From: a virus
Lineage: Duplodnaviria > Caudoviricetes
Virus record (IMG/VR): IMGVR_UViG_3300037470_000577
Span: 1-64,000 of that record
Length of the DNA stretch: 64,000 nt
Strand: one strand, 5' to 3'
The position numbers and the translations under genes were made by a program. The notes beneath the pieces were generated by a model. The model was not told where the DNA came from, made no database searches, and saw nothing but the letters and a program-made list of their open reading frames with translations. Below, in pieces: positions 7,562 to 59,153 of this stretch. Every line of letters starts with the position of its first letter. The stretch's first letter is position 1.

Positions 7562-8570
7562 TGTGAAAAGCGTGTGCTAATGTACGGTTAATGATTGTCG
7601 GGGGAATCGGCTGAAATTGGCTGCGCGATTCTTAGGGGTTAAACACCATAGACAACCATTTGCCCCCATTGCAGCACGTGGTAATTGTCGTTGCCGCCGT
7701 AGGTTAATGGTTGTCTGGGGAATCGGGCATTTTTCACGGCGCGATTTTTAGGGGGATGATGCTACCCACCTTCTCGCCCATTCCCAGAATGGGACCCTAT
7801 CCCGCCGATTTTCCCGCCAACCATTTACCCAGCCGATGTAACAGCCATTGCCGCCAATCGCCACCTGGCCGATGCTTTCGCCAATGTGCCGACAATGGGA
7901 AGGGAAGCCGGACGGCCGACACGCTCGCCATTTGCAGATGCACGGCCAGGGAAGCCACCTAGCAAGCGAATAGCACCCTACTATATGATGGTGGGAGTTT
8001 GCTATCAAAATTAGGCAAGGTGGGCCATATAGCGGGCAAATGTGGACGACACGAGGGAAGGGTTGGCATAGGGGGGCATGGGGTGAAGGGGTGAAGGGTG
8101 GGGATAATCCCCCACTCTAACCCTCTGTCCTTACCATTCCCCCTTTCTACCCCTCTTGGCAATCCCCCTCTCTAACCCCTCACCCTGTCCCTTGCTCCAT
8201 TTTACCCCTCTTGGCAATCTCCATACCCTCACTCGCTCCACCCCGCTTGGCACGTACTCCCCTATATGGCAGCCGCCCATAGAACGCCTGTGCTATCCCA
8301 TATATAGTCCATTGTGGTCATTTGCTGCCCATGTTCCCATATGTGGATTGAATATGAGTACAACATTAGAACGGGTTAATTTTAGATAGAAACTTTGTTC
8401 TCATGACATTTTGGGCTTGACTGGTATATGTGGGGGTGAATGGTTGGTTGTTGGTTGGTTTATGGCTATATGTGGGGGTTGGAGGGGTTGATTTTATCTT
8501 GACTGGCTATGAGATAATAAAGCCATAGATTTTACTCATACGCGCGTAAGAACCGCAAAGGGAACAAACA
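7562..8570. other. about 1-kb non-coding, strand-skewed region (candidate origin or genome terminus/pac region)
   Basis: No credible ORF; imperfect 53-bp direct repeat (7586-7638 / 7702-7755); G-run tract 8055-8103; C-run tract about 8109-8265; repeated ATATG(T)GG and TACCCCTCTTGGCAAT. Confidence 0.45.
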
Positions 8571-39111: not shown

Positions 39112-42100
39112 TTATTCCTCCAGCCACAACGGAGTAATCACACTGTTACCTAGTGTTATCGTAAAGCCAAAAGCCCAATCTCCTGTCTTATCAGTAAAGG
39201 TATCCCCGTTGTCAATCGAAACAAAGATGCCGGTCGTTGTCAGGACGTAATATTGCTGATTGTTATAGGGGAAGCCGCCTGCCGCCCGAACCATGCCGGA
39301 CACGCCTGTGGCATTGGCCTGACTCCAACTATCGCCACCATCAGTTGAAAGCCATAGCGTATCATCTTCTCGCCAATGGAAAAGGCGCATACGATTTTCG
39401 GTATAACTCTCGATGCCGTGCCGTTTGGCATTTGTGTAAATATCGGACCCTAATTCAGACCAGTTCGAGCCGCCGTCCTCGCTACGATACAGCCCTTCGT
39501 TCTGCCAAACGGCATAGATAATCTGGCCGGTGCTGTTGTTGTTGTATGGGTAATGAACGACGATACCGCCATCATTACCACCACTACCAAAATTGCCGAT
39601 GTCAACCAGGGTCCAGGTTACACCGGAGTCGGTCGTGTAGTAAAAACGACCGTTCCCTTGCTGGCTCTTACAGGCCACGCCCATCACAACTTGGTCGCCG
39701 ACGAGATGAGGTAGGTAATCTGCGCCACCAAGGAACGGGCGTATCTGAGTTGTGTTGACCGAACCGTCAGCAATAACGTTGTAACTCCATGACGAGCCAC
39801 CATCGGTGGTAATGGTACAAAGCAGGGCCATTCTGTCGCCATCGCCGATGTCTCCTTTTTGGTGAATAAAAGCTACCCACCCCTCGCGGTTGATACTTGC
39901 CATAATCTTACGGCCGTTAATATAGTCATTGCCTGGTTTGATAGATGAATACCCAGTCTCTATTTCAGACTTGCTAAGTATCTGTGTCCAGGTCGGCACA
40001 GTCTGGTCTAAGTCAACTGATTTCCAGAAGCCCGTCGTTGATGAGACATAACCTATCTGGAACGGATTCCAGGGGTCCAGCACGAAGTCATATAACGTGC
40101 CAGTAATACCTCCGGTGATGTCTGACCAGGAAGGCGACGAGGCCGACAGGTCGCGCGTTCTCCCCAACACCCCATCGACTAACACGTAGTTCGTTCCAAA
40201 ACCACCACCGGGCGTTGGGATTGGGTTTGGAACATCATCAGGCTCGCCACCGGGATCAATTGGAAAGGACAGACACTCAGTCGAGACGCCAGTACGAGAG
40301 ACAACTTCCGGCTCGAAGAAAGCAAAGCAGGTTACGAGACCTTTCTCGACACTGACCTGGATGGTAATGGTATCGGGGATAAGGCGCTGCCCGCTCCAGA
40401 CAACGCCAAGATTGTTGTGGTCGTCGTCAATGGCCCACATATCATCACGCGGTTCCAGGTAATCACTGTAGTCGCCCTGGAATAGGACAACCACTTCCTC
40501 TATCTCCCGGTTCTCTCTCGCCAGAAGCCGCCCGGCCAGTTCATTAGCGTGTTCCTGGGAGCGTAATGTCTGACGTTCCAGGCGAACAAACGCTTCACCG
40601 CCATATTCGGGAACAGGGCCAGGGGCAATGGCGCAGAAGCCTTCGGCCGTTGGGTTGCCGTCCCCGTCAAATGTGCCATCGAAATAGATGCCCGACACCG
40701 AAGCGAACGCGGCCGGTTTCCAGTGACGCTGCACGAAATTGAGGTTCGCACCCTTATCGGTATCGGTGATGGTCATGGTCGTGTCCAGCGTTGCCCGTTC
40801 AGCGTCGGTTAGTAGATTCAATATTGGTACAAAACGCAAGTTGCCGTTTCTGTCAGTGGCAAGAACACGCCTGACCCGGTTGTACATCGCCTCGGCCATA
40901 CCGTACAGCGTTCCCTCCTCGAAGTCAGTGGCGTAATTCAAGTCCATGCCGTCCTGCGCCAGGCCAGCAACATCGGCAATCTGAAATAGGGTCGAGTGCC
41001 TGAGATAGAGATGGGCCAGAGCTTCGCCGATAGACAATTCGTCAGCCGGGAATTCGTACCAGACATCGGGCGCGTCGTCACTGGTTAACGAGACCGAGAA
41101 TTGGAACTCGCGGCGCAGGTACTCTTCGACCGACACTATATCCATTGTGGTCGTGTTCACGCCGCGTGATAAGTCGGCAATGGCGCTGGCCCGATACAGA
41201 TAGCCAACGGCCAGATGATGGGGAAACACCCACAAGGTTGAGGGATACCGCTGCTCGTCGGCAATGACGGGCGTATTGCGATAGTCGTAAGGGACGGTTA
41301 GCAAATTAACGGTCTCGTCCGTATCTGAGAAGGTGACAGAGCCGTTGGCGCAGTTTACACTACCGGAAGTGGACAGGGTGATGCTGATAATGCCGCCCGC
41401 TGTCATGGCGCTGCCCGTCACCAGCCCACCGCCCGATGCAACAAAGCCTAAGTTACAGACCGTTCCATCTGGAGCGGGAGCGCCATCAACCATAACGCTG
41501 GCAGTGAAGGTGAAGTCCACCACGCATAACGGTATGGTAGAATCGGTGAAGGTGTAGCCAATGGACGGGTTGACATATAATTTATTGCCCGCTACAACCA
41601 TCTTGGCGAAGTTCCCCAACTCCATATCATTTCCGTAGACGCTCTCCTTCCACAGAACCGAGAAGGCCCGCTTTGGAACGGGCGATAAATCTTCCGCCCG
41701 AACAATAACCTGGGCAAATGAACCGCCCCGTCCAATGGAACGCACTACCTGATTGACGGTGAAATCGGTGATGGGGTAGGTTGCGTTGCCGGGTTCCGGG
41801 TTATGGGCAAAGACGCAGCGCCAGGTCGAGATGGATTGCCCGTTATCGTCATTAACCGTCAGTTTCAGCCAGTAATATTCCTGGGTTAGCGACGTTACCT
41901 TCACCGACCCCAGGCCCGTACCGGTATCGAAATCAACGGTCACACCGCTGGTTGGGTAGCACGACAGAGCATAGGAGGCTACGGCTGTCCCGGCCTGGAT
42001 GGGGTAGGAGTTGGAGGCATTGACGAAAAAGGTCAGCGAGCCGTTGCGAACAAATCCGGCCTTCATCGAGAGCGAGAGAATGGGAATGGGCGGTCGGTCT

Positions 42101-42534
42101 ACCGAGGACCAGGGGATGTCCCTGTCTTTGTAGAACGTTTCAGTCACAGGGTCGATGTAGGGATAGACGGCCCACAGTTGGTAGTTATGAATGAAGGTCA
42201 GGTACAGGTCGTTGATCCAGGGGAAGTTCTGTGCTGCCACTGTCACCGTCCCGGTTACGCCGCTGTCGCCTGAGGTAATGGCCCGAATCCGAATGATGCC
42301 GATGTCATGCGCTCCGGGCGATGTGCCAACCCACAAGGTTTGGGGCGCTTCGATAGCAGCGAAGTGACTGCCTGTTCCGCCGTCAAAGACAATCTCTGTC
42401 TCAGCATCCTCTATCTCGGCGTCGTTCACCCTTGCCGACCAGAGCGTCAGCGGTTTCAGAAACGAAAGATAGAAGGCTGACAGATGATGGTCGGCCCGGA
42501 GAAAGGCTAAGTCATTGGCGGAGATAACAGTCAT
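39112..42534 (-). CDS. large tail-tip/receptor-binding protein with C-terminal Asp-box (BNR) beta-propeller
   Basis: 1140 aa; TTDGGSSW, TTDSGVTW, SEDGGSNW, STDGGDSW and SIDNGDTF Asp-boxes after a PDDVPNPIPTPGGG linker. Confidence 0.75.
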   Translation of the reverse strand: MTVISANDLAFLRADHHLSAFYLSFLKPLTLWSARVNDAEIEDAETEIVFDGGTGSHFAAIEAPQTLWVGTSPGAHDIGIIRIRAITSGDSGVTGTVTVAAQNFPWINDLYLTFIHNYQLWAVYPYIDPVTETFYKDRDIPWSSVDRPPIPILSLSMKAGFVRNGSLTFFVNASNSYPIQAGTAVASYALSCYPTSGVTVDFDTGTGLGSVKVTSLTQEYYWLKLTVNDDNGQSISTWRCVFAHNPEPGNATYPITDFTVNQVVRSIGRGGSFAQVIVRAEDLSPVPKRAFSVLWKESVYGNDMELGNFAKMVVAGNKLYVNPSIGYTFTDSTIPLCVVDFTFTASVMVDGAPAPDGTVCNLGFVASGGGLVTGSAMTAGGIISITLSTSGSVNCANGSVTFSDTDETVNLLTVPYDYRNTPVIADEQRYPSTLWVFPHHLAVGYLYRASAIADLSRGVNTTTMDIVSVEEYLRREFQFSVSLTSDDAPDVWYEFPADELSIGEALAHLYLRHSTLFQIADVAGLAQDGMDLNYATDFEEGTLYGMAEAMYNRVRRVLATDRNGNLRFVPILNLLTDAERATLDTTMTITDTDKGANLNFVQRHWKPAAFASVSGIYFDGTFDGDGNPTAEGFCAIAPGPVPEYGGEAFVRLERQTLRSQEHANELAGRLLARENREIEEVVVLFQGDYSDYLEPRDDMWAIDDDHNNLGVVWSGQRLIPDTITIQVSVEKGLVTCFAFFEPEVVSRTGVSTECLSFPIDPGGEPDDVPNPIPTPGGGFGTNYVLVDGVLGRTRDLSASSPSWSDITGGITGTLYDFVLDPWNPFQIGYVSSTTGFWKSVDLDQTVPTWTQILSKSEIETGYSSIKPGNDYINGRKIMASINREGWVAFIHQKGDIGDGDRMALLCTITTDGGSSWSYNVIADGSVNTTQIRPFLGGADYLPHLVGDQVVMGVACKSQQGNGRFYYTTDSGVTWTLVDIGNFGSGGNDGGIVVHYPYNNNSTGQIIYAVWQNEGLYRSEDGGSNWSELGSDIYTNAKRHGIESYTENRMRLFHWREDDTLWLSTDGGDSWSQANATGVSGMVRAAGGFPYNNQQYYVLTTTGIFVSIDNGDTFTDKTGDWAFGFTITLGNSVITPLWLEE

Positions 42535-47493: not shown

Positions 47494-48198
47494 TTCTTCT
47501 CCAATTTCTCAGCCAGCGCCAGCGCCTCGGTTATCTTGGGCAGGTTATTCGCGGCCACCCGCTGCACCCGTTCGGGCCAGGGCAGGTCAAGCCACTGGTC
47601 GAAGGTCATGCCGGTCTGGTTTATCACCGCAATCTCCCAGGTCATAATGACATCGTAGGCAGTCTTGTTTTCTTCATCGGCGATTCTATCCAGCGCCTCA
47701 AATACCTGTCGCCCGTTATAGGTCGCCTTCATGTCCTCGGCAAAGCATTTTGCCAGCGCTTCCTGAGTGACACGCGGAATAAGAACTGCATCCATGACCG
47801 CCACCCAATCGTCCTGGGTCGTTATACGCTGCCGGTCAACCTCCTGAACGCAGTTGTCCAGAATGTAGTGTAGAAACCAGCGCACAAAATCTTCAACCGA
47901 TTTCAACCGTTCCAGTTCGTGGGCAACGGCGCTCTTGAACCGCTGCCAGTCCATAAACTGCCACCAGCGGTTGGTGTGCGGCAGAAGCTCTTCATCGTCG
48001 GCCAGCACCGGCCGTTCCGGGGGCCGCTTAACAGCCGATAGATCATACGTTTCCTTGAATACGGCCTTGTCAATGGTGACGATTTCGTACTGGTAGGGGC
48101 CAAGAAGGGCGGGCTGTTTACCGTCCGTTTCAAAAAGAGCCAATCGCCTCAAGACGATTGGCTCTTGGTCAGAGGGCAGAATAATTTCTAGTTGCATC
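47490..48198 (-). CDS. tail assembly chaperone-like protein
   Basis: Follows the tail tube gene; probable start MQLEIILP; C-terminal W..LPW.ER motif. Confidence 0.5.
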
Positions 48199-49738
48199 CA
48201 CCAGATTGGGCCAGCAGCTTGTGAACGACGCCATTTGCGCCATCGTCGTCGCCGCAAATCCAATACTCGTTGGGCGATTCGATAGAGGCCGCCGCGCCAT
48301 TGTAGCCGCCGTTGGTTACAACCGATACCAGATTCCAGCTATTACCGGCGTCGTTGCTGTGCCAGAACTCGCCGCTTCCTGGGGTCGTCACATCAACAAC
48401 GCAGTAGATGTTGTACGGATCGCCTTCGGGTAAGAAGATGTTCTTAACCACATGAGCCGCACCAAAGTCCTTGACCTCAGACCAGCCCCCGGCATTCTCA
48501 CCCTGATTACGCGAGACGTACAGCGATTGTCCGTTTCCGGCAAAGAGCAAGCCGTCGCTAGATAGGGCTAAGGCAGTGAAAGCGCCGCCGCCCGATGGCC
48601 CGACACGAGCCGATACCGACCCTGACAGATTGCGTTCCACCAGGAGCGTGTTAGTATCGCCTCCAAACCAGACATCTTCACACTCGCCGTAACCGCGAAT
48701 GGCAACATTGATCTGAGCCAGGCCCGACGCAATTTCAGAATTGCTTTCGTGCTGGTCGGTTGAAACGTGGAGAGTTCCATTGTCGGTTCCATAGTAGGCT
48801 CGGAGCGGGAATAGTTGGGCCATCATGGTGATAATGTCGCCAGTATTAGCACCAACATTGACGTTGGTAAAGGTAATCGTTCCCTCAGCGCCGAAGGTGA
48901 TGTCGCCGTAGGCTATCTCGGCTGGGTTGCCCACATCGGTAAGGGAGCGGGAAACGGCAATCCTCATCCGGTTGCCGGTTGTGATTCCGCCCACGATATG
49001 GCCGATATGTTCGTCATTTCCAAAGGGGTTGGAACTCATAGCTGCCCAGGAGCCGCCGCCGTTAACCGAGTAGAAAACCTCAGCCGGTACGCCGGTGTCA
49101 GCCTGCTGGGAAACCATGATGTGTTTGCCAGGTCCACGATAAGCGGTAATACAGCCGCCAGGAACCGGATCGTTAATAACCAGAATACCGGTTAAGTCGG
49201 TGACGTTTAGGGCGTCGGTAAAGGTTAGGTTGGAGATGGTCATCGGCAAGAGCTTAAGATAGACCTTGCTGGCAACCGGCACTGTCTCGGTGACAATGGG
49301 GTCGCTGCCGTCCACGACCGGGCCATCCGTTTCCGTCCCGCCAGACGTTACCCGATTGCTGCCGAAATATTCCAACTGTCCACCGTTCAACCAGCCCTGG
49401 GGATTGTCGCGGGTAACACAGGGCGAGAAGGCCCGCCAGATAGGAAATTCATCCTGGGCCTTACCCCGCTTATCGAGATAGCTTTCCTCAACCGCCTTGC
49501 GAACGGTTAAGTTAAAGGTGTCAAGTCCGCTGGGTGGGGTCTTGAACGTTCGGGAAACAACAATCTGACCAAAGCGATTGTTGCTGTACTCCTGGTCAAC
49601 GGTCGGGACATTGTTTTTTGTTCGGCCTGTCAGCCCGTACCGGGACAGGGATAGGGGAACCAGGTTCGTTCCAATGCCGCCAACGCGGCCATTGGGCATG
49701 GCAAATAAGGTCATTTTGCCAGCTGATAAATCTGTCAT
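48188..49738 (-). CDS. probable major tail (tube) protein with C-terminal Asp-box beta-propeller
   Basis: Position between neck and chaperone genes; YSVNGGGSW and HSNDAGNSW repeats in the last 300 aa or so. Confidence 0.55.
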   Translation of the reverse strand: MTDLSAGKMTLFAMPNGRVGGIGTNLVPLSLSRYGLTGRTKNNVPTVDQEYSNNRFGQIVVSRTFKTPPSGLDTFNLTVRKAVEESYLDKRGKAQDEFPIWRAFSPCVTRDNPQGWLNGGQLEYFGSNRVTSGGTETDGPVVDGSDPIVTETVPVASKVYLKLLPMTISNLTFTDALNVTDLTGILVINDPVPGGCITAYRGPGKHIMVSQQADTGVPAEVFYSVNGGGSWAAMSSNPFGNDEHIGHIVGGITTGNRMRIAVSRSLTDVGNPAEIAYGDITFGAEGTITFTNVNVGANTGDIITMMAQLFPLRAYYGTDNGTLHVSTDQHESNSEIASGLAQINVAIRGYGECEDVWFGGDTNTLLVERNLSGSVSARVGPSGGGAFTALALSSDGLLFAGNGQSLYVSRNQGENAGGWSEVKDFGAAHVVKNIFLPEGDPYNIYCVVDVTTPGSGEFWHSNDAGNSWNLVSVVTNGGYNGAAASIESPNEYWICGDDDGANGVVHKLLAQSGGCN

Positions 49739-49977
49739 TATTCTTCCTCCTCATGGGTTAATTGGGATAACAAATAAGCCTCCCTTACCTGATAGACAAG
49801 CAAGTAGGTACTATAGCCAACAATGTGCGTACCGTGCTGGGGTAGGTTGTCCAGCTTTTCCAGGCTGTCAATACCCAATCCCTCTAAGGCGGCAATAACG
49901 AGCTTCGCTTTCTTGGCCGGTTTAACGATTTTGCGAATGTATTTATTGAACATAAAGCGTTCCTTACAGCAGAGCAA
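49738..49977 (-). CDS. small hypothetical neck-region protein
   Basis: Coupled ORF. Confidence 0.5.
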   Translation of the reverse strand: MLCCKERFMFNKYIRKIVKPAKKAKLVIAALEGLGIDSLEKLDNLPQHGTHIVGYSTYLLVYQVREAYLLSQLTHEEEE

Positions 49978-51205
49978 AGGTATATTGGGCGTCGCTCTGC
50001 TTTAGCTGCATCAAGATACGATAGGCTTCCACTTCACCCATCTTGGTTCCAAAAGGACAATTCAAGATGTCGCGCCGGATGAACTTAACCTCTTCCCCTT
50101 CCTTTCGTCTGGTCTGGGCGATGATGAGGTCTTGCTTGTATTCATTCTCTTTGGCCCGAACGTTCTCGCAGGTGGAGCAGATGGGCTTCTCCAGTCTGGC
50201 CGTTGTCATGTAGACAATGGCCTGGGCCAGCGCCTCCGGGATAACGTACTGGCCGTTCTCGACCTCCGCCAGACCAGACAGGTAGCTGCTGACAACTCTA
50301 TCAGGCTCGAAGCCGTTGATAAAGGCGGTGTCGGTAAAGGTGTCGCCCTCGTAAATGGTGGGAACGGGCGATACCAGACCAACTTCCGGACTGCGTGGTA
50401 GAAGCTGGGCGGTCTGCACCTCGGCGATGTTGATGTGTCTGCCGCTCCAGTAAAGCGTACACTGCTCGGCCGGATCGGTGTAGACCCGATATACGTCAAC
50501 AGCGGCAACAAAGCTGGCCGGAACATCTATGGGAATGCCGGAGCCGTAGGCTGAACCGGGCCACGCCTCCTGAACGGCTGGCGACAGCAGCATCTCGCTC
50601 GCTACCGTTGCGGTGAAGGTCGTGCCGTCGGCGCTCTTGGTCAGAAGCGGCCGAATCTCCCACTGTTTGGCTGCGCCCGTTCCGACAAAGAAGAGCCTTA
50701 ATTCGGTTAGCTCAGTTAAATCGGTCAGCGCCGAAATGGTTGCCAACTCATCCCAACCATCGCCGTCCGGGTCGCTGTAGGTGACGGTCGCACCCGCTTC
50801 GATGAGGGTAGCGGCCCGCTTGCCGCCAGTGATGAACCGCTCTCGTTTCAGGGCAACGGACTTAAACGAGCCGTTGACACTTCGACCGGTCGTGCCGACA
50901 AAATCAGGGCGAAAGAAGGATGGGTACTGGCCGTTCTCGTTCTCGATATAGTGCGGGGCAGGCCAGTATCGTAGTTCGGAAGCAATGGCGTTTTCTGTTC
51001 GGGCCATCTCGCGGGCCAACTCTTCCCGGCTGACGCGCGTTCGATGCTGCCACTCATGCTGATACCAGATGTCACGGCAGCCCTCGTTTTGGGGGATTAA
51101 GGGAACGCTTGAATCATCACCACCATTAAAATGGACAGGATTGATACCCATAATACGGGCATAGGTGTCCAGGGGGGTGATGGTGTAGATACTAGCTCTT
51201 GCCAT
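49964..51205 (-). CDS. head-tail adaptor/neck protein
   Basis: 413 aa; SREELAREM.RTE..IA..LRYWPAP and C-terminal PFGT..GEV.AYR; position after the head genes. Confidence 0.55.
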   Translation of the reverse strand: MARASIYTITPLDTYARIMGINPVHFNGGDDSSVPLIPQNEGCRDIWYQHEWQHRTRVSREELAREMARTENAIASELRYWPAPHYIENENGQYPSFFRPDFVGTTGRSVNGSFKSVALKRERFITGGKRAATLIEAGATVTYSDPDGDGWDELATISALTDLTELTELRLFFVGTGAAKQWEIRPLLTKSADGTTFTATVASEMLLSPAVQEAWPGSAYGSGIPIDVPASFVAAVDVYRVYTDPAEQCTLYWSGRHINIAEVQTAQLLPRSPEVGLVSPVPTIYEGDTFTDTAFINGFEPDRVVSSYLSGLAEVENGQYVIPEALAQAIVYMTTARLEKPICSTCENVRAKENEYKQDLIIAQTRRKEGEEVKFIRRDILNCPFGTKMGEVEAYRILMQLKQSDAQYTFALL

Positions 51206-51476
51206 AATGTTTATCTACTAGCAGCGCCGCCGCCGACAAGGCGAAAGGCATGGCCGCTTTAACAGGTACAAAGACAAGCGCCAGTCCAACCCAAACCGAC
51301 AGGCAGTATTTGCAGGTGAGTGCTTCTGATAGTTCGTTCGTACCATAGGAGATAGCGCCTTCATACCGAACGCCCGCCTGGTGGCGAAACCAGCGCAGAC
51401 AGTCATAGGGGCCATCCTCTTCCATCAAGAGTTTGACCAGTCGCCACGTTGCCAGTGCCTTAATCAAATAGTCCAT
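51192..51476 (-). CDS. DUF1360-like membrane protein
   Basis: ALATWRL..LL..EDGP....R......L.EALTC.YCLSVWVG. Confidence 0.75.
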   Translation of the reverse strand: MDYLIKALATWRLVKLLMEEDGPYDCLRWFRHQAGVRYEGAISYGTNELSEALTCKYCLSVWVGLALVFVPVKAAMPFALSAAALLVDKHYGKS

Positions 51477-51483
51477 AACCAAT

Positions 51484-51529
51484 AAAAAAAGGGCCGGTCA
51501 GCACAGGGAGGATACCCGCTGACCGGCCC
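51484..51529 (-). terminator. intrinsic terminator closing the glycosylation cassette
   Basis: 12-bp GC stem GGGCCGGTCAGC/GCTGACCGGCCC followed by T7 on the - strand. Confidence 0.8.
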
Positions 51530-51628: not shown

Positions 51629-54600
51629 TCACGCCGCGTGAACTTCGGAACCGAATACCAGGTCAACGGTACTTTGTCCCACGCCAGGCAGCGCCAGCAA
51701 GCCGTCTGGCCCCAATGCCTGGGCCTGGGCTAAGGTGGTAATGCCTTTCTCCTCCAATGCCTTAAGCGAACGGAAGTTGATGGGTAGTCTACTAAGTGGT
51801 TCTTCGACAACGATGGGCTTGGGCGCCTCTCGCTCACGCTGTTTGGCCTGGTACGCTTCTCGTCGCTGCTGGATTAAGTCAACCGGATCGTAGCCGTTGA
51901 CAGTCTTTCTTTCGACAGGTTCAGGCTGGGCGACAGGTTCGAGACGGGGGGCAGGAGCGACCTGTTCTGTATGGCGAGGCTGACCGCCACAGTCGCACCA
52001 GGCTGTCTCACGGTTAAACTGGAGAGGACGGCGGCAGTAGGCGCAGGCAAAAATCTGCACCTGTGCCCGCACATCCTGACTATCCACATTCTTAACAACA
52101 TCGCCCTTCGTCACGCGGGTATAACGTTTGCCGGTTTCGGCGCCAACAAGCCACTGCTCGCCGCCAAAACCCTGGTAGATTACATCCATCGCACTCATCT
52201 CCATTGGGGCAGGTGGCCCCGGTTGTTTTTCATCGTTATCACAGTTACACATACGCTCTACCTCATTGAATTTCTGCTGGATATAGGTTAAGGAACGGGC
52301 GTACACATCCGGCTCCTGAATCCGCCGCCTGCCGCTTGCCAGGTCATATATCCACAGCGGCTCGGCAATCTTGGTGAACTGCCGCCCGCTCCAAGATAGC
52401 TGCAAAATCAGCAGGTTATCTTCCCACGTTTCCAGCGTCTCGTCAAAGGGGATCATCCACTCGCGCGGGATCAGGATATTCGTTCCGGCAGCGGTGTAAG
52501 GGATTGGCCCCTGGGGAAAGGCCGTTGCTTTCTCGCAGCGCCATTCAGGAACCTTATCTGGTATGTACGCCTTACCACCCGCAATCTTGGCCGCTGGTGG
52601 GCCGTAGCTGTCGGCGTACTGCTCGTCTACCAAAGCAATAAAATCACTGTACGGTATCTTGCCCGTCTCTTGAAAGCGGCGGTAATGCTTTGCCAGATAT
52701 TCCGGTAGGATACGGTCGTCGGCATCGACAAAGGCTAACATCGCCCCCTTCGCCTGCCCTACGCCAGCATTGCGAGCCGCGCCCGCTCCCACGCCGTCCG
52801 TCTCTAAGTAGGTGACAAAGGGGAAGGCAGTGCGGTAATAGGCTTTAGCCGTCTCGTTCTCAACGCCATCCCATACCACAACTGCCGCCCATTCCCGCAT
52901 AGTCTGCCCTTCGATGCAGTGCAGGCAGTTGACCAATAGCCCTTCGTGACCTGGGCCAACCGGGATAATGATAGAGACCTCCGGCTTCTCGTAGGAATAA
53001 ACGGGATGGGCAATGCCGTTCACAGGCTGGGCGATAGAGGCAAACGGATGGACGCCGCCGCTGGTCCAGGGATGTTCGAGCGTCCAGTCCGGCTCTTCAT
53101 AGCCCATCTTACCCGACACATGCCCCACACCCGAATAGTGAAGCCATCTGCTGGGCCTGTCGCGGTCAACGACATAGCTTGCGCCCCAACCCATTGCCCC
53201 CAATCGCAGCCATAACTCAGCATCCTCAGACCCAGCGCCATCCGGGGCGTAGAGCGGCATGTAGCCGCCCGCTCGCTCGAAGGCTTTGCGGCGAATCATA
53301 CAGCCTGACGGAACCTGATTTATGTGCGCTAACTGCTTCTGATAATCAAATGGGAAAGGCCAGTTATACTCATAATCTTCAACTCTGCCATCGTCGTCCC
53401 AACGAATCTTGCCCGTCATACTATCTTTCTGGAAACCACGAACCGTATCTATGCCCAACATGGAAGTGTAAGCCACTCCCAACGTTCCATCTCGTTCCAA
53501 CTCTCGCGCCAGAATCGGCGACCAACCCGGCTCAATATTATCGTCGGCATCTAAGAAAGCTAGATACTTACTCTGCCCCTGTCTGGCCCCATAATTACGA
53601 GCCAGAGCAACGTTGCCAAATTCGACCCGATGATAGCTGATACGGCTGTCTCCCTGAGCCGCCACAATCTCCTGTATGCCAGGGTCAGATGAATCGTCCA
53701 CGACGATGATGTTCTTGACTGCTGAACTTTGGCCCATTGCGCCCTGTAGCGCCCGTTCTAGGGTATGATGGTAATTGTGGCAGGGAATGACTATATCGAC
53801 TGAGGGCGGCTCGTTTTGAAGGGCTAGACGATAAACGGTGGCGACTTGGGCAACGATGCCAGGCCAGGAATAGCTCTTTGCGATTTCTTTGGCCCAGGTC
53901 GAGTAATCTCTCCTGTTGTAAAGTATATCTTCAAGAAGCATTACGGCGTCATCAAAATCTCTATAAGACCAACCGGCTTTCTTTCCTGGTCTTAAAAGAA
54001 AATTCGGGACCTCCCCAGCGTCAACCGTTAGCACCGGAACGCCACTAGCCATCGCCTCCAGTGGGGCGATACCAAATGTTTCCCGGTCTGAGGCAATGAA
54101 CACCAGCGATTGCTGGATAAGGCGCTTCATCTCGCCCGAAGGAACCGCGCCGCCCAACACCTGTAAGTTGGCGGGCTGGTTAGGCCCGGCCAGGGTCGAA
54201 ATGAACTTCTGACTTGGAAAGGCTTTTGCCAATCTGTTAATGAACGAAGGGTCGAGGCCGTCCGTTGCCCGGTTCTTAGCCCACAGGATATGGGCTGGCG
54301 TCTCATTATGCTGCCACTCCTCCCACTCTACGCCATGCGGAATGATGTGGGGTGTGACGCGCATGTCTCGTTGGAAGGGCATGGCAACCCATGGCGACGG
54401 AACGGTTACCTGACGGGCTAGGCGGTAGGAGCGTACTAGGTCGCGATTAACGACGTGAGCGGCATCACCTAATTGCGGCATCTCTCCCGTCCAGAGATTT
54501 CCGTGTGAATGAACCACCTGCGCTCCAGGATGGGCGGCGGCATGAGCTACCTCCAGGTCGTAGCTGGTCGCCATCGGGTCAACCAACTCAATATCGTAGT

Positions 54601-54697
54601 CCGGCAGGTAGCGGAAGTAATGTTTGATTACCTGGGCAATGCCGTTGTCGTGGTTTGCCAGGTCGTGAAGATGGGGATACATGCGTACTTTAATCAT
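51629..54697 (-). CDS. multidomain glycosyltransferase GT4 + GT2 + GT2 + Cys-rich segment + HhH
   Basis: GT4 ETFGIAPLEAMASG (E-x7-E); GT2 VIPCHN...FLDADD; GT2 IIIPVG...FVDADD; CAYC..CDC; C-terminal KGITTL..A......LLALPGVGQST HhH. Confidence 0.9.
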   Translation of the reverse strand: MIKVRMYPHLHDLANHDNGIAQVIKHYFRYLPDYDIELVDPMATSYDLEVAHAAAHPGAQVVHSHGNLWTGEMPQLGDAAHVVNRDLVRSYRLARQVTVPSPWVAMPFQRDMRVTPHIIPHGVEWEEWQHNETPAHILWAKNRATDGLDPSFINRLAKAFPSQKFISTLAGPNQPANLQVLGGAVPSGEMKRLIQQSLVFIASDRETFGIAPLEAMASGVPVLTVDAGEVPNFLLRPGKKAGWSYRDFDDAVMLLEDILYNRRDYSTWAKEIAKSYSWPGIVAQVATVYRLALQNEPPSVDIVIPCHNYHHTLERALQGAMGQSSAVKNIIVVDDSSDPGIQEIVAAQGDSRISYHRVEFGNVALARNYGARQGQSKYLAFLDADDNIEPGWSPILARELERDGTLGVAYTSMLGIDTVRGFQKDSMTGKIRWDDDGRVEDYEYNWPFPFDYQKQLAHINQVPSGCMIRRKAFERAGGYMPLYAPDGAGSEDAELWLRLGAMGWGASYVVDRDRPSRWLHYSGVGHVSGKMGYEEPDWTLEHPWTSGGVHPFASIAQPVNGIAHPVYSYEKPEVSIIIPVGPGHEGLLVNCLHCIEGQTMREWAAVVVWDGVENETAKAYYRTAFPFVTYLETDGVGAGAARNAGVGQAKGAMLAFVDADDRILPEYLAKHYRRFQETGKIPYSDFIALVDEQYADSYGPPAAKIAGGKAYIPDKVPEWRCEKATAFPQGPIPYTAAGTNILIPREWMIPFDETLETWEDNLLILQLSWSGRQFTKIAEPLWIYDLASGRRRIQEPDVYARSLTYIQQKFNEVERMCNCDNDEKQPGPPAPMEMSAMDVIYQGFGGEQWLVGAETGKRYTRVTKGDVVKNVDSQDVRAQVQIFACAYCRRPLQFNRETAWCDCGGQPRHTEQVAPAPRLEPVAQPEPVERKTVNGYDPVDLIQQRREAYQAKQREREAPKPIVVEEPLSRLPINFRSLKALEEKGITTLAQAQALGPDGLLALPGVGQSTVDLVFGSEVHAA

Positions 54698-56717: not shown

Positions 56718-57006
56718 CTACATATCCTGTTGTAAGCAAGGCATCCAGCCCCGGAAATTCGTTGCCGGTATCAACTCGCCCTGGAGCACCGTGCCAGAGA
56801 TAGCTGGTTTTCATCTCTGCTTGGTGGTCACTTTCCAGGATGGCGAACAAGCGTCGATACTTCTTGCCGGTTTTTTCCGTCTCCCGAACGCTTCCATGAA
56901 GAAGAGTGCGAACGACCTCTCTTTCTCCGCGAAGAAAAAGGCGGGTCATTCGTTCCTTATTTCTTTTCAAGATAACCTCCGGCTTGTCTATGTCAAGATG
57001 GGTCAT
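56710..57006 (-). CDS. hypothetical protein
   Basis: Coupled between the sulfotransferase and GT2 genes. Confidence 0.55.
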   Translation of the reverse strand: MTHLDIDKPEVILKRNKERMTRLFLRGEREVVRTLLHGSVRETEKTGKKYRRLFAILESDHQAEMKTSYLWHGAPGRVDTGNEFPGLDALLTTGYVDG

Positions 57007-57673
57007 ATCTAAACCTCGTGATGTCGTCAGTGAAAAACGTCTCCACTTCTGCAATCTGTTCGGCTGTCAGCGCCTCGCGCCACTGCCCTATTTCGCCAGA
57101 ATAGATGTGACGGGGCGACATGAAGTGCCGTTCGTTCTGGTCCAGTGCCATCCCCGCCCGTATCCGATTGGCCTCCCTACCCCACTTGCGGGCGATGTAT
57201 TCGGCAAGGTCAGAATGAAGGTGAAAGTCCATGTAGCTGCCAACCACCTTAACAAACCGGGTCGGATCGGCCATCATATCTTCGTAACGAAGATACTCTG
57301 CTCCGGGGCCAATCCCATAAACATAGCCAGACTTGGTTTCCCACGAACTGAGCGCCGCACTCCAGTTCTGCACTGCCCTACTTGCCATCGTGCCTTCAAA
57401 TGTATTTTGCTGAAAGTGCACGAGCGAGACGAATACATCTCTTGGATCGCGGACGGTCACAACAGCCCGATAGTCAAAACCCTTTAGCGCCGGATGCCAC
57501 TCATGCAATTTGATGACTACGCCATTCGGCTCGCTCTCCCACCCGCGCACCATATCGGCGTCGATGCCGAATGGCCTAACCACTCGCCCGCCGTGTAGGA
57601 GAACAATTTCGCCCATGACCTGGTAGAGAAAGGTCGAAGCGGTTTTCATGGGGCCACCGGCAATATAGAGCAT
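56993..57673 (-). CDS. PAPS-dependent sulfotransferase
   Basis: 5'-PSB loop GGPMKTASTFL, 3'-PB RDPRDVFVS, RYEDM..DP and C-terminal SGEIGQWRE.LT.EQ. Confidence 0.88.
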   Translation of the reverse strand: MLYIAGGPMKTASTFLYQVMGEIVLLHGGRVVRPFGIDADMVRGWESEPNGVVIKLHEWHPALKGFDYRAVVTVRDPRDVFVSLVHFQQNTFEGTMASRAVQNWSAALSSWETKSGYVYGIGPGAEYLRYEDMMADPTRFVKVVGSYMDFHLHSDLAEYIARKWGREANRIRAGMALDQNERHFMSPRHIYSGEIGQWREALTAEQIAEVETFFTDDITRFRYDPS

Positions 57674-58124: not shown

Positions 58125-58664
58125 TTACACCATTCTCCTAAACGACCGAATCGTACAGGCTCTCTCCAGTTCTACGAACCTATCACCATTGGCTGCATAC
58201 CAATCCGAGACAACTTCATTCACTTCGGGACAGATGTGGTGCGGTTTGTTGGGGTCGCAGGAACCGTAGTCGCTACAATCGTGGAAGGCAACCACGCCAT
58301 TGACGGTCAGACGGTCAATCCACCCCAGGTCTAATGTCACCCCCTGCCTGGAATGGTCGCCGTCTATAAACAACAAGTCAATGTCGCCAACGAAGGTTTG
58401 GAGAACATCGTGCGAACGGCCCTCGACCAGATAGAAGTTGCGGTTGGGATATTTCGGCCCCGCATAGCGGGCTAGGGAAATGTCTATGCCGGTGACAGAG
58501 ACGGAGGGTTTAGCGCCATCGGTCAGGCAGACCATTGACTTACCAAATTCGATTCCAATATTAACAATACTTCCATTCTCTGGTACTTCCCCGGCAAGTT
58601 TATATAACCGTTTTGCCTCAACCTCTTGAAGATACCCTCTCGCTTTTAGGTGTCTGTCACTCAC
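58125..58664 (-). CDS. class I SAM-dependent methyltransferase (Methyltransf_24-like, putative sugar O-methyltransferase)
   Basis: VNIGIEFGKS motif I; DLLFIDGDHS..GV..D......GVVAFHD. Confidence 0.85.
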   Translation of the reverse strand: MSDRHLKARGYLQEVEAKRLYKLAGEVPENGSIVNIGIEFGKSMVCLTDGAKPSVSVTGIDISLARYAGPKYPNRNFYLVEGRSHDVLQTFVGDIDLLFIDGDHSRQGVTLDLGWIDRLTVNGVVAFHDCSDYGSCDPNKPHHICPEVNEVVSDWYAANGDRFVELERACTIRSFRRMV

Positions 58665-58960
58665 TCTGTAGCTCCTTTACTTGGGAAAAAGTATTTCTCA
58701 GGCTCTTCATTCCAATTAACACCTTCTATCTGGTTTGGCGTAACCACTTTCCCTTTGATAATGAAAAAGCGGTCTCCGTATCCAGAGAACCTACTAAGTC
58801 CAAGATAGCCCGTCGCTTTGATTGGATGAAGCGGTGCTTCTTCGGTAGCGTGACTGAGTTCATTGACGAGAGAATCCTCTTCACGCACTAAGACAATGCC
58901 AGCACTAGGAGAGATAACGAAATATACATCTTCTTTTTCAAATGTTGGTCTGTCAGACAT
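58661..58960 (-). CDS. hypothetical protein
   Basis: Coupled ORF. Confidence 0.55.
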   Translation of the reverse strand: MSDRPTFEKEDVYFVISPSAGIVLVREEDSLVNELSHATEEAPLHPIKATGYLGLSRFSGYGDRFFIIKGKVVTPNQIEGVNWNEEPEKYFFPSKGATE

Positions 58961-59153
58961 ATTCTATCTCTACCTCCAGTGGGTCAATCGTCTCGTTCTC
59001 AAAATATATACGAACAACCTGCCTACCCTGCCGGGCAAGGTCATTGTGGATTAGTTGGCGGATGTAGGCCACCAGTGACAGGTCGCGCTCGCCCGCTCGC
59101 TCAGTTGCCGCTTCGTGCAACTCATCTTCTAATCGTACAGAGAAAGATACCAT
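58953..59153 (-). CDS. ribbon-helix-helix (Arc/CopG-like) regulator, leaderless
   Basis: FSVRLEDELHE.A...A....SL..YIRQLI; ATG lies 7 nt after the -10 box. Confidence 0.8.
   Translation of the reverse strand: MVSFSVRLEDELHEAATERAGERDLSLVAYIRQLIHNDLARQGRQVVRIYFENETIDPLEVEIEYV

What the first reader, a model, noticed from the sequence alone, without database searches (positions are those of the whole stretch)
51629..54697. Three glycosyltransferase domains fused to a Cys-rich module and a C-terminal helix-hairpin-helix
Seen: GT4 (about aa 1-290), GT2 (about 295-560), GT2 (about 570-815), then a segment that begins like an independent protein (MCNCDNDEK...Y.G.....G.ETGKRY..V...VD..DV...CAYC..CDC), a Pro/Glu linker and an HhH (LLALPGVGQSTVDL). 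Inference: the last 200 aa or so resemble the small proteins that usually follow capsid genes, so the enzyme may be an assembly-line glycan polymerase tethered to the prohead or packaged DNA. The alternative is that the HhH targets sugar transfer to DNA, since GT4 shares the GT-B fold with the T4 DNA glucosyltransferases.
Basis: partly seen in the sequence, partly recalled or inferred. Interest (0 to 1): 0.75.

Follow-up and report, generated by a model that had tools for sequence, protein, structure and literature searches.

The report
Phage triple glycosyltransferase with targeting tail
An uncultured 79-kb phage encodes, next to its capsid gene, one 1022-residue protein made of three intact sugar-transferring enzymes plus a small module that is a separate gene in a related phage; it most likely builds a sugar coat on the virus particle, a trait so far shown by experiment only for a few mycobacteriophages and algal viruses.

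Summary
ORF 51629-54697 lies on the minus strand, not the plus strand. It encodes GT4 (aa 1-293), GT2 (298-560), GT2 (572-815), then a module: CxC, a small beta domain, a Cys4 zinc ribbon, a Pro/Glu linker and an (HhH)2 domain.

All three catalytic motif sets are invariant in 25 homologues. The architecture is a large family known only from uncultured phages: of the 120 best hits, 73 have all five parts, 21 lack HhH, and 26 have the three GTs only.

Stand-alone 204-274-aa copies of the module exist, all but one (P0123) keeping an N-terminal Cys pair. In a related phage one sits exactly at the fusion junction, between the three-GT gene and the next gene.

In 49 of 69 related loci the gene follows a capsid-like gene, with sugar-tailoring genes in between. 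The window carries an O-methyltransferase-type gene, a sulfotransferase and a GT2.

Virion glycan synthesis is my best reading (about 0.55). DNA glycosylation is disfavoured: no ThyS or TET was found, and the HhH domain is acidic. What the module binds is unknown.

This scan noted comparable capsid-adjacent glycan cassettes in other phage genomes; I did not check whether they hold this enzyme.

The parts
51629..54697 (-). Whole ORF: 1022-aa GT4-GT2-GT2-module fusion (P0001)
53819..54697 (-). GT4 domain (GT-B fold), aa 1-293, with EX7E motif E206/E214
   Evidence: Pfam Glycos_transf_1 38.7 bits; motif invariant; Foldseek matches ManT, MshA and GlgM
53018..53806 (-). First GT2 domain (GT-A fold), aa 298-560: D335 (D334 in at least 90%), D383xD385D386, E491D492
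   Evidence: Pfam Glycos_transf_2; motifs conserved; Foldseek K4CP and PmHS2
52253..52984 (-). Second GT2 domain (GT-A fold), aa 572-815: D610, D658xD660D661, E759D760
51983..52252 (-). Start of the module, aa 816-905: M816-C-N-C, a five-stranded beta domain (aa about 836-885), and a Cys4 zinc ribbon (CAYC-x12-CDC)
   Evidence: Model pLDDT above 90; one invariant Cys, family-wide beta domain; stand-alone homologues with an N-terminal Cys pair such as MGCNC; sub-threshold Zn-ribbon Pfam hits
51812..51982 (-). Pro/Glu-rich linker with one long helix (aa 906-962)
   Evidence: Low pLDDT apart from helix 938-956; family linker is 22% Pro
51632..51811 (-). (HhH)2 domain, aa 963-1022, of the RAD51-NTD / RNAP alpha-CTD / NusA-AR type
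51484..51528 (-). Terminator-like hairpin (11-bp GC-rich stem, 15-nt loop, T7 run) ending the cassette
   Evidence: Read directly; the consensus scan misses it because of the long loop
59572..61086 (-). 504-aa HK97-like major capsid protein candidate, upstream of the cassette
   Evidence: ESM Atlas structure TM 0.79 to a 'major capsid protein' cluster, SU10_MCP rows TM 0.78-0.84; homologue present in 52 of the related loci
58125..58664 (-). Class I SAM methyltransferase (Methyltransf_24); the relatives' copies also hit the rhamnosyl O-methyltransferase/CmcI family
   Evidence: found in 30 related loci
56993..57673 (-). PAPS-type sulfotransferase
   Evidence: Pfam Sulfotransfer_1 42.7 bits, cut-off 22; three paralogues in relative L072
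56025..56717 (-). Stand-alone GT2 glycosyltransferase
   Evidence: Pfam 46 bits; 47% identical orthologue in L072
51192..51482 (-). Small DUF1360-like membrane protein with CxxC (p96; the likely ATG is at 51476), conserved directly after the three-GT gene
   Evidence: co-occurs with the beta module
49964..51205 (-). Conserved 413-aa protein at the neck/adaptor position, function unknown
   Evidence: Present in 57 related loci; no Pfam, PHROG or PDB match

Best explanation
P0001 is a soluble, cytoplasmic, three-active-site glycan synthase of an uncultured tailed phage. With the neighbouring GT2, sugar-O-methyltransferase-type and sulfotransferase genes, it most likely builds a short tailored (methylated, sulfated) oligo- or polysaccharide on virion proteins, most probably the major capsid protein, during head assembly.

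Inferred division of labour: the retaining-type GT4 domain and the two inverting DxD-type GT2 domains each add a different sugar from host NDP-sugars. Relatives add their own amino-sugar pathway genes.

The C-terminal module (CxC, basic beta domain, Zn ribbon, Pro-rich linker, acidic (HhH)2) is a detachable accessory subunit that in this lineage has been fused to the enzyme. It most likely localises the enzyme to its site of action through a protein or nucleic-acid contact. It is not part of the catalysis.

Shown: the architecture, the motif conservation, the fused and split forms, and the synteny. Inferred: the acceptor, the product and the module's ligand.
For: - All three GT domains are confidently folded and keep invariant catalytic motifs.
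- No hydrophobic membrane helix appears in the model.
- The gene lies in the head-to-neck block. An MCP-like gene lies upstream on the same strand in 49 loci, p96 follows in 43 and the 413-aa gene in 57. In five loci, which form two near-identical sets, the GT gene starts 55-62 nt after the MCP stop.
- The variable genes between the MCP gene and the three-GT gene in relatives are glycan genes: CmcI-like O-methyltransferase, DegT aminotransferase, NAD-dependent epimerase/dehydratase and extra GT2s. The window has a methyltransferase, a sulfotransferase and a GT2.
- The module is dispensable and separable. Of the 120 best homologues, 26 lack it and 21 lack only HhH. In L071/L072 it is a separate gene that overlaps the stop of an 833-aa three-GT orthologue by 11 nt.
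- The genome has no integrase, which argues against lysogenic conversion.
- Precedents: glycans on the capsid and tail tube of mycobacteriophages (as cited in PMC12619734), and chlorovirus three-domain GTs for capsid glycans (PMC7826918).
Against: - There is no direct evidence for any acceptor.
- The MCP, the 413-aa protein and the tube-position protein show no Ser/Thr-rich tract or shared C-terminal tag.
- The cassette has its own promoter-like site and terminator, like a moron.
- A beta domain, a zinc ribbon and an (HhH)2 domain are all typical nucleic-acid-binding parts.
- The conserved downstream gene p96 is a small membrane protein, so a membrane-associated acceptor is possible.
- P0001 has no detectable homology to any cultured phage's virion-glycosylation enzymes.
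Confidence: 0.55

Rival explanations
1. DNA hypermodification. The (HhH)2, zinc-ribbon and beta-domain module clamps the enzyme on phage DNA, and the three GT domains build a glycan on a modified base to block restriction.
For: - (HhH)2 domains, zinc ribbons and small beta barrels are common DNA-binding parts. The module matches the RAD51 NTD and alpha-CTD.
- The beta domain is basic (median pI 9.0).
- Phage GT-A and GT-B enzymes that add multi-sugar glycans to 5hmC are known (bioRxiv 10.1101/2023.12.21.572611).
- The genome has a C5-cytosine methyltransferase.
Against: - No ThyS-type hydroxymethylase was found in this genome or in five relatives.
- No Tet/JBP hit was found either, although that search had no positive control.
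- Known DNA-GT clusters sit beside the methyltransferase/TET/ThyS and replication genes. Here the gene sits between the capsid and neck genes.
- The (HhH)2 domain is acidic (median net charge -4).
- About a fifth of the family lacks the module altogether.
- No T4 beta-GT-like match appears among the top Foldseek hits.
Confidence: 0.12
2. Host-envelope or free-polysaccharide synthesis. The tandem GT2 pair, with the GT4 domain, extends a lipid-linked or membrane-primed polysaccharide (like capsule or glycosaminoglycan synthases). This would alter the infected cell surface, for example for superinfection exclusion. The small membrane protein p96 would be the anchor bound by the module.
For: - The best structural matches are the bifunctional capsule polymerases K4CP and PmHS2.
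- Cellular tandem GT2-GT2 relatives occur in cyanobacterial chromosomes.
- The cassette looks like a moron, with its own promoter-like site and terminator.
- The beta module co-occurs with p96: 34 loci have both, 17 neither and 8 are discordant.
Against: - The genome has no integrase.
- The gene's position is fixed in the head module across a wide phage family, unlike mobile morons.
- No flippase, ABC exporter or polyprenyl-phosphate initiating transferase was noticed among the cassette genes scanned.
- The K4CP match has an rmsd of about 20-23 A, so the domains match individually but their arrangement does not.
- The p96 link rests on only five independent contrasts (sign test p about 0.125).
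Confidence: 0.15
3. The enzyme itself is a virion or prohead component. The module works like a capsid-targeting or scaffold-like tail that docks the synthase on or inside proheads.
For: - The gene sits in the head operon next to the protease-like, scaffold-like and MCP genes.
- The separable C-terminal helical domain on a flexible linker recalls C-terminal coat-binding domains of scaffolding proteins (from my own knowledge, not tested here).
Against: - No homology was found to any known decoration, scaffold or targeting sequence.
- Module-less enzymes occur in the same genomic position.
- Nothing here tests binding.
Confidence: 0.1

Closest known systems
Chlorovirus PBCV-1 multidomain glycosyltransferases A111/114R and A064R (PMC7826918)
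   Same: A virus-encoded single polypeptide with three roughly 300-aa catalytic domains. It builds a capsid-protein glycan in the cytoplasm without host glycosylation machinery. A methyltransferase function belongs to the same system.
   Different: - It is a eukaryotic giant virus and its glycans are N-linked.
- No homology was tested or seen here.
- It has no GT4+GT2+GT2 order and no beta/Zn/(HhH)2 module.
- Here the methyltransferase and sulfotransferase are separate genes.
Mycobacteriophage virion glycosylation (Che8, Corndog, Myrna; Freeman et al. 2023, seen here only as cited in PMC12619734)
   Same: A tailed phage that encodes its own soluble glycosyltransferases, plus a methyltransferase, that decorate capsid and tail-tube subunits.
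   Different: - tblastn of P0001 against 50,697 phage records found no mycobacteriophage match, only short GT2 hits below 40% identity.
- Those enzymes are separate single-domain proteins.
- Their acceptors are C-terminal tails, for which no counterpart is visible here.
Bifunctional tandem GT-A polysaccharide synthases: E. coli K4 chondroitin polymerase K4CP (2z87) and Pasteurella heparosan synthase PmHS2 (8viw)
   Same: Two DxD GT-A domains in tandem on one chain. These are the best Foldseek matches (E 6e-26 and 7e-17). A neighbouring sulfotransferase would fit a glycosaminoglycan-like product.
   Different: - Identity is 12-19% and the rmsd over both domains is 16-23 A, so the domain arrangement differs.
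- They have no GT4 domain and no C-terminal module.
- They act on lipid-primed capsule chains that are then exported.
Phage DNA glycosyltransferases (T4 alpha/beta-GT; 5mYOX- and ThyS-associated GT-A and GT-B enzymes; bioRxiv 10.1101/2023.12.21.572611)
   Same: Phage-encoded GT-A and GT-B enzymes that can act successively to build multi-sugar adducts.
   Different: - Those genes cluster with C5-methyltransferase plus TET, or with ThyS, and with replication genes.
- Neither ThyS nor TET was found here or in five relatives.
- None is described as a three-domain fusion or as carrying HhH; a search of that paper for 'helix-hairpin' and 'fusion' gave 0 occurrences.
(HhH)2 domains of the RAD51/RadA N-terminus, RNAP alpha-CTD and NusA AR1/AR2
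   Same: The same roughly 60-residue five-helix fold, with sequence-profile similarity. Like the NusA acidic repeats, the domain is acidic.
   Different: It is attached to a glycosyltransferase through a Pro-rich linker. Pfam HHH_5 is below threshold in P0001. Its ligand is unknown.

Membership tests
CAZy GT4 / Pfam Glycos_transf_1 (retaining GT-B) | Pfam score above the gathering threshold | tested here: met
   38.7 bits against a cut-off of 26.4, aa 181-262
CAZy GT4 / Pfam Glycos_transf_1 (retaining GT-B) | EX7E motif in the C-terminal Rossmann half | tested here: met
   E206 and E214 are invariant in 25 homologues
CAZy GT4 / Pfam Glycos_transf_1 (retaining GT-B) | Two-Rossmann GT-B fold | tested here: met
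   The model matches ManT 7qsg (TM 0.58-0.70), MshA and GlgM. The N-terminal half hits Pfam Glyco_transf_4 only weakly (E 0.0046).
CAZy GT4 / Pfam Glycos_transf_1 (retaining GT-B) | Retaining glycosyl transfer activity | not testable with these tools
   Needs an enzyme assay
CAZy GT2 / Pfam Glycos_transf_2 (inverting GT-A), two copies | Pfam score above threshold, in two separate stretches | tested here: met
   126.9 bits against 23.3, two stretches; PHROG GT hits at 296-389 and 574-670
CAZy GT2 / Pfam Glycos_transf_2 (inverting GT-A), two copies | DxD metal/NDP-binding motif and acidic catalytic base in each copy | tested here: met
   D383xD385D386 with E491D492, and D658xD660D661 with E759D760, all invariant
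(HhH)2 domain superfamily | Recognised by curated HhH models | tested here: inconclusive
   HHH_5 is 14 bits against a cut-off of 27 in P0001. Many homologues carry PF14520, and the module profile hits the RAD51 NTD at E 2.7e-5.
(HhH)2 domain superfamily | Five-helix fold with two hairpins | tested here: met
(HhH)2 domain superfamily | Non-sequence-specific DNA binding | not testable with these tools
   The domain is acidic (median pI 4.6), which argues for caution
Phage DNA-glycosylation pathway | A route to a hydroxymethylated base (ThyS-type hydroxymethylase, or C5-methyltransferase plus TET/5mYOX) in the same genome | tested here: not met
   ThyS is absent in this genome and in five relatives, with a working control. 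Tet_JBP gave no hit, without a control. A C5-methyltransferase is present.
Phage DNA-glycosylation pathway | GT clustered with DNA-modification or replication genes | tested here: not met
   The gene lies between the MCP-like gene and the neck-position genes in 49 or more loci
Mycobacteriophage-type virion glycosylation (Che8 gp108-110 type) | Homology to the characterised enzymes | tested here: not met
   No mycobacteriophage hit in tblastn against 50,697 phage records
Mycobacteriophage-type virion glycosylation (Che8 gp108-110 type) | Glycans on capsid or tail-tube subunits | not testable with these tools
   Needs glycoproteomics. No obvious acceptor tract was found.
Bifunctional glycosaminoglycan synthases (K4CP, PmHS2) | Two GT-A domains in tandem with the same mutual arrangement | tested here: inconclusive
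   They are the top Foldseek hits, but the rmsd is 16-23 A and TM 0.33-0.36 over both domains
Bifunctional glycosaminoglycan synthases (K4CP, PmHS2) | Alternating polymerisation of a disaccharide repeat | not testable with these tools
   Needs product analysis

The most novel reading that the evidence does not exclude
A large lineage of uncultured phages coats its heads with a self-made, methylated and sulfated glycosaminoglycan-like glycan. The glycan is built by a single three-site assembly-line enzyme. A detachable beta/Zn/(HhH)2 subunit positions that enzyme at the site of head assembly by docking on packaging DNA, on the capsid, or on the small membrane protein p96. This would be the first sulfated glycan and the first targeting subunit described for any phage glycosylation system.
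Probability: 0.2. Interest if true: 0.85.

Novelty: new variant of a known kind. Interest (0 to 1): 0.6.

Why it matters
Virion glycosylation by phage-encoded enzymes has been shown by experiment only in a few mycobacteriophages, where it affects antibody recognition.

The family described here has at least 964 hits in the protein search, which was capped at 8,000 candidates, and 69 IMG/VR loci. That would make capsid-linked glycan synthesis a widespread trait of environmental phages. It uses an unrelated, fused three-enzyme design, and in this subclade there are sulfotransferases as well.

The fused and split forms of the tail identify a new, unnamed roughly 200-aa protein family as a functional partner of the enzyme. 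That gives a concrete handle for finding the acceptor: determine what the module binds.

Practical interest: phage surface chemistry bears on immune evasion, adhesion to mucus or particles, and stability. It also offers compact multi-step glycan synthases for glycoengineering.

Tried and rejected
I therefore could not read the genomic context of most stand-alone module proteins. Only P0125 was placed, through the single metagenome scan.
- The search for related loci with the module alignment failed because it has no conserved stretch. Single stand-alone proteins found nothing in the viral contigs.
- An HMM of the module found no stand-alone copy in the 69 IMG/VR loci.
- The beta domain could not be assigned a fold. 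Foldseek and VIA hits on the module model all fall on the (HhH)2 part. The ESM Atlas gave no usable hit. The Pfam DUF5800 hit is sub-threshold. This is no evidence that the fold is new.
- The 413-aa and 504-aa neighbours gave nothing with Pfam, PHROGs or a PDB profile search. The MCP call rests on the ESM Atlas alone.
- I looked for a Ser/Thr-rich or shared C-terminal acceptor tag in the structural proteins and found none.
- Host inference failed. Full-length hits in genome contigs are all MAG contigs of inconsistent taxonomy, and one contig appears in MAGs of two different phyla.
- The co-occurrence of the beta module with p96 is strong on raw counts (Fisher p 7e-8). It has only five independent contrasts on the tree (p about 0.125), so I treat it as a lead.
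- I rejected lysogenic serotype conversion as the main reading because the genome has no Tyr or Ser recombinase. One of five relatives does have an integrase.
Full report
**What is there**

The window is the first 64 kb of a 79,290-bp IMG/VR virus record that CheckV rates 96% complete. The finding's coordinates hold one ORF, but on the minus strand: 1022 aa, kept as P0001.

Pfam places Glycos_transf_1 (the C-terminal half of GT4) at aa 181-262. It places Glycos_transf_2 in two stretches, 126.9 bits in all. HHH_5 reaches only 14 bits at aa 978-1012. PHROGs gives glycosyltransferase families over all three enzyme regions and nothing over the tail.

An AlphaFold2 model built on 25 homologues has mean pLDDT 82.9 and pTM 0.74. 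It shows one GT-B and two GT-A domains, then a small beta domain, a disordered Pro/Glu stretch with one long helix, and a helical end domain.

Foldseek matches the tandem GT-A part to chondroitin polymerase K4CP (E 6e-26) and heparosan synthase PmHS2 (E 7e-17). The rmsd of 16-23 A shows that the domains match one by one and their arrangement does not. The GT-B part matches ManT, MshA and GlgM.

**Are the enzymes alive?**

In an alignment of 25 full-length homologues at 34-66% identity, these motifs are invariant:
- GT4: E206-x7-E214.
- GT2a: D335 (D334 in at least 90%), D383-A-D385-D386 and E491-D492.
- GT2b: D610, D658-A-D660-D661 and E759-D760.

**The tail**

A separate model of aa 818-1022, built with 25 homologues including the stand-alone ones, has pLDDT 86, with the beta domain and the end domain above 90.

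The end domain is an (HhH)2 fold:
- Foldseek gives TM 0.73-0.77 to isolated RNAP alpha-CTD and RAD51 N-terminal domains.
- A sequence profile of the module hits the RAD51 NTD (E 2.7e-5), NusA AR2 and alpha-CTD in the PDB.

The CAYC-x12-CDC segment gives only sub-threshold zinc-ribbon hits. It is confined to the P0001 subclade and the stand-alone proteins. Across the whole family only the first Cys is invariant.

**The family**

The protein search returned 964 hits at E 0.001 or better, from a capped candidate list. The listed proteins come almost entirely from metagenome sources. With domain HMMs, the 120 best hits split as follows:
- 73 have GT4+GT2+GT2+beta+HhH.
- 21 have the beta domain but no HhH.
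- 26 have the three GTs only (about 730-970 aa).

The pattern scan returned 69 IMG/VR loci, 65 of which gave a hit to the GT gene in my own BLAST.

In one-genome-per-species prokaryote contigs, full-length matches occur only on MAG contigs of mutually inconsistent taxonomy. Isolate genomes, mostly cyanobacteria, match only the GT2-GT2 part, at 22-34% identity. I therefore read the fusion as a phage family. The host remains unknown.

**Fusion and fission**

A full HMMER pass of the tail against 1.84 billion representatives found stand-alone proteins of 204-274 aa with the same order of parts. Most begin MGCNC or similar (P0121, P0122, P0123, P0125, P0128, P0129).

P0125 could be placed. In metagenome contigs L071 and L072, its ATG lies 11 nt before the stop of an 833-aa three-GT protein. 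That protein is 43% identical to P0001 residues 1-813. The gene after P0125 is a homologue of the window's 96-aa gene. Upstream lie a methyltransferase, three sulfotransferase paralogues and a GT2 that is 47% identical to the window's.

This is the same cassette with the module as a separate gene, at exactly the place where P0001 reads ...ERM-CNC.... The idea that it resembles proteins that follow capsid genes is not supported. P0001 still has GAGG 8 nt before the M816 codon, so separate translation of the module is conceivable but untested.

**Context**

BLAST of the window's minus-strand genes against ORFs of the related loci shows a fixed order:
- a 504-aa protein (52 loci);
- a variable insert;
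- the three-GT gene;
- the 96-aa protein (43 loci);
- a 413-aa protein (57 loci).

The ESM Atlas links the 504-aa protein to major-capsid clusters (structure TM 0.79; SU10_MCP rows TM 0.78-0.84). Just upstream of it lie a 250-aa and an acidic 207-aa ORF. I take these for the prohead protease and the scaffold from their sequence character only.

The variable insert is 55 nt to 9.5 kb long. Its commonest genes are an unknown 240-aa protein, a CmcI-type sugar O-methyltransferase, a DegT aminotransferase, GT2s and an NAD-dependent epimerase/dehydratase. The window has Methyltransf_24, Sulfotransfer_1 and a GT2.

A promoter-like site at 59188-59160 and a strong hairpin with a T-run at 51528-51484 bracket the window's cassette.

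**Weighing the readings**

Virion glycan synthesis fits these observations:
- the head-module position, kept across a broad family;
- the glycan-tailoring neighbours;
- a soluble enzyme;
- no integrase in this genome;
- precedents in mycobacteriophages (cited in PMC12619734) and in chlorovirus three-domain GTs (PMC7826918).

It remains an inference. No acceptor tract is visible, and there is no homology to cultured-phage systems.

DNA glycosylation is the natural reading of an HhH tail, but several points go against it:
- ThyS-type hydroxymethylases are absent here and in five relatives, including a complete one with terminal repeats.
- Tet/JBP gave no hit, though that search had no positive control.
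- Known DNA-GT clusters sit with such genes.
- The (HhH)2 domain is acidic family-wide (median pI 4.6, net charge -4), while the beta domain is basic (pI 9.0).
- A fifth of the family does without the module.

A membrane or polysaccharide reading keeps some weight. The best structural matches are K4CP-like enzymes. The beta module also co-occurs with the small DUF1360-like membrane protein p96: 34 loci have both, 17 neither and 8 are discordant. On the tree, however, that link has only five independent contrasts (p about 0.125).

**Verdict**

P0001 is a member of a large, undescribed, phage-specific family of three-site glycan synthases. Its accessory module is a separate gene in at least one related phage, and stand-alone copies of it exist. 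The most likely function is building a tailored glycan on virion proteins (about 0.55). What the module binds is the open question and the best experimental entry point.

Earlier notes of this scan describe comparable capsid-adjacent glycan cassettes in other phage genomes. They agree with this reading but are not independent evidence. I did not check whether they contain this enzyme.

Noticed in passing
window 12171, 16733, 18376, 31920, 31938, 51610, 51628, 63405 (each 15 nt): The palindrome TTCAC-N5-GTGAA, mostly as TTCACGCCGCGTGAA, occurs 8 times where 0.06 is expected by chance. Two tandem copies span the stop codon of P0001. It may be an operator for a phage regulator or a structured RNA element.
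   Followed up: partly
window 52253-52269 (minus strand): A Shine-Dalgarno-like GAGG lies 8 nt upstream of the M816 codon at the fusion junction. The module might therefore also be translated on its own by internal initiation.
   Followed up: no
window 51192-51482 and the related loci: The small DUF1360-like membrane protein with a CxxC motif (p96) follows the three-GT gene in 43 loci. It co-occurs with the beta module (Fisher p 7e-8), but with only five independent contrasts on the tree (p about 0.125).
   Followed up: partly
L072 2321-5041: A related metagenomic phage has three sulfotransferase paralogues in a row in the same cassette. Sulfation therefore seems to be elaborated in this subclade.
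   Followed up: partly
protein P0078 (1289 aa): One homologue of the three-GT protein carries a Pfam intein-splicing domain (PF14890), which would be an intein inside a phage glycosyltransferase.
   Followed up: no
window 48188-49738 and 39112-42534: The 516-aa protein at the tail-tube position and the 1140-aa protein both have weak Sortilin-Vps10 (Asp-box/BNR propeller) hits. This hints at glycan-binding propellers on the tail.
   Followed up: no
L084 and L085: Essentially the same roughly 83-kb phage contig is binned into MAGs labelled Proteobacteria and Gemmatimonadetes. The MAG taxonomy of these contigs should not be used to infer hosts.
   Followed up: no
L010 and L014 (IMGVR_UViG_3300031566_000001, 143 kb): One viral contig holds two copies of the MCP plus three-GT block about 75 kb apart. 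It is probably an assembly concatemer of two related genomes.
   Followed up: no
window 58953-59153: A 66-aa ORF with a HicB-family hit (24.5 bits) is the first gene after the promoter-like site that heads the cassette. A second gene for a methyltransferase of the PHROG 'DNA methyltransferase' type lies in the same cassette.
   Followed up: no
L090-L117: Chromosomes of filamentous cyanobacteria (Calothrix, Rivularia, Nostoc, Tolypothrix) encode tandem GT2-GT2 proteins 25-30% identical to aa about 293-768. They may represent the cellular source of the double-GT2 core.
   Followed up: no
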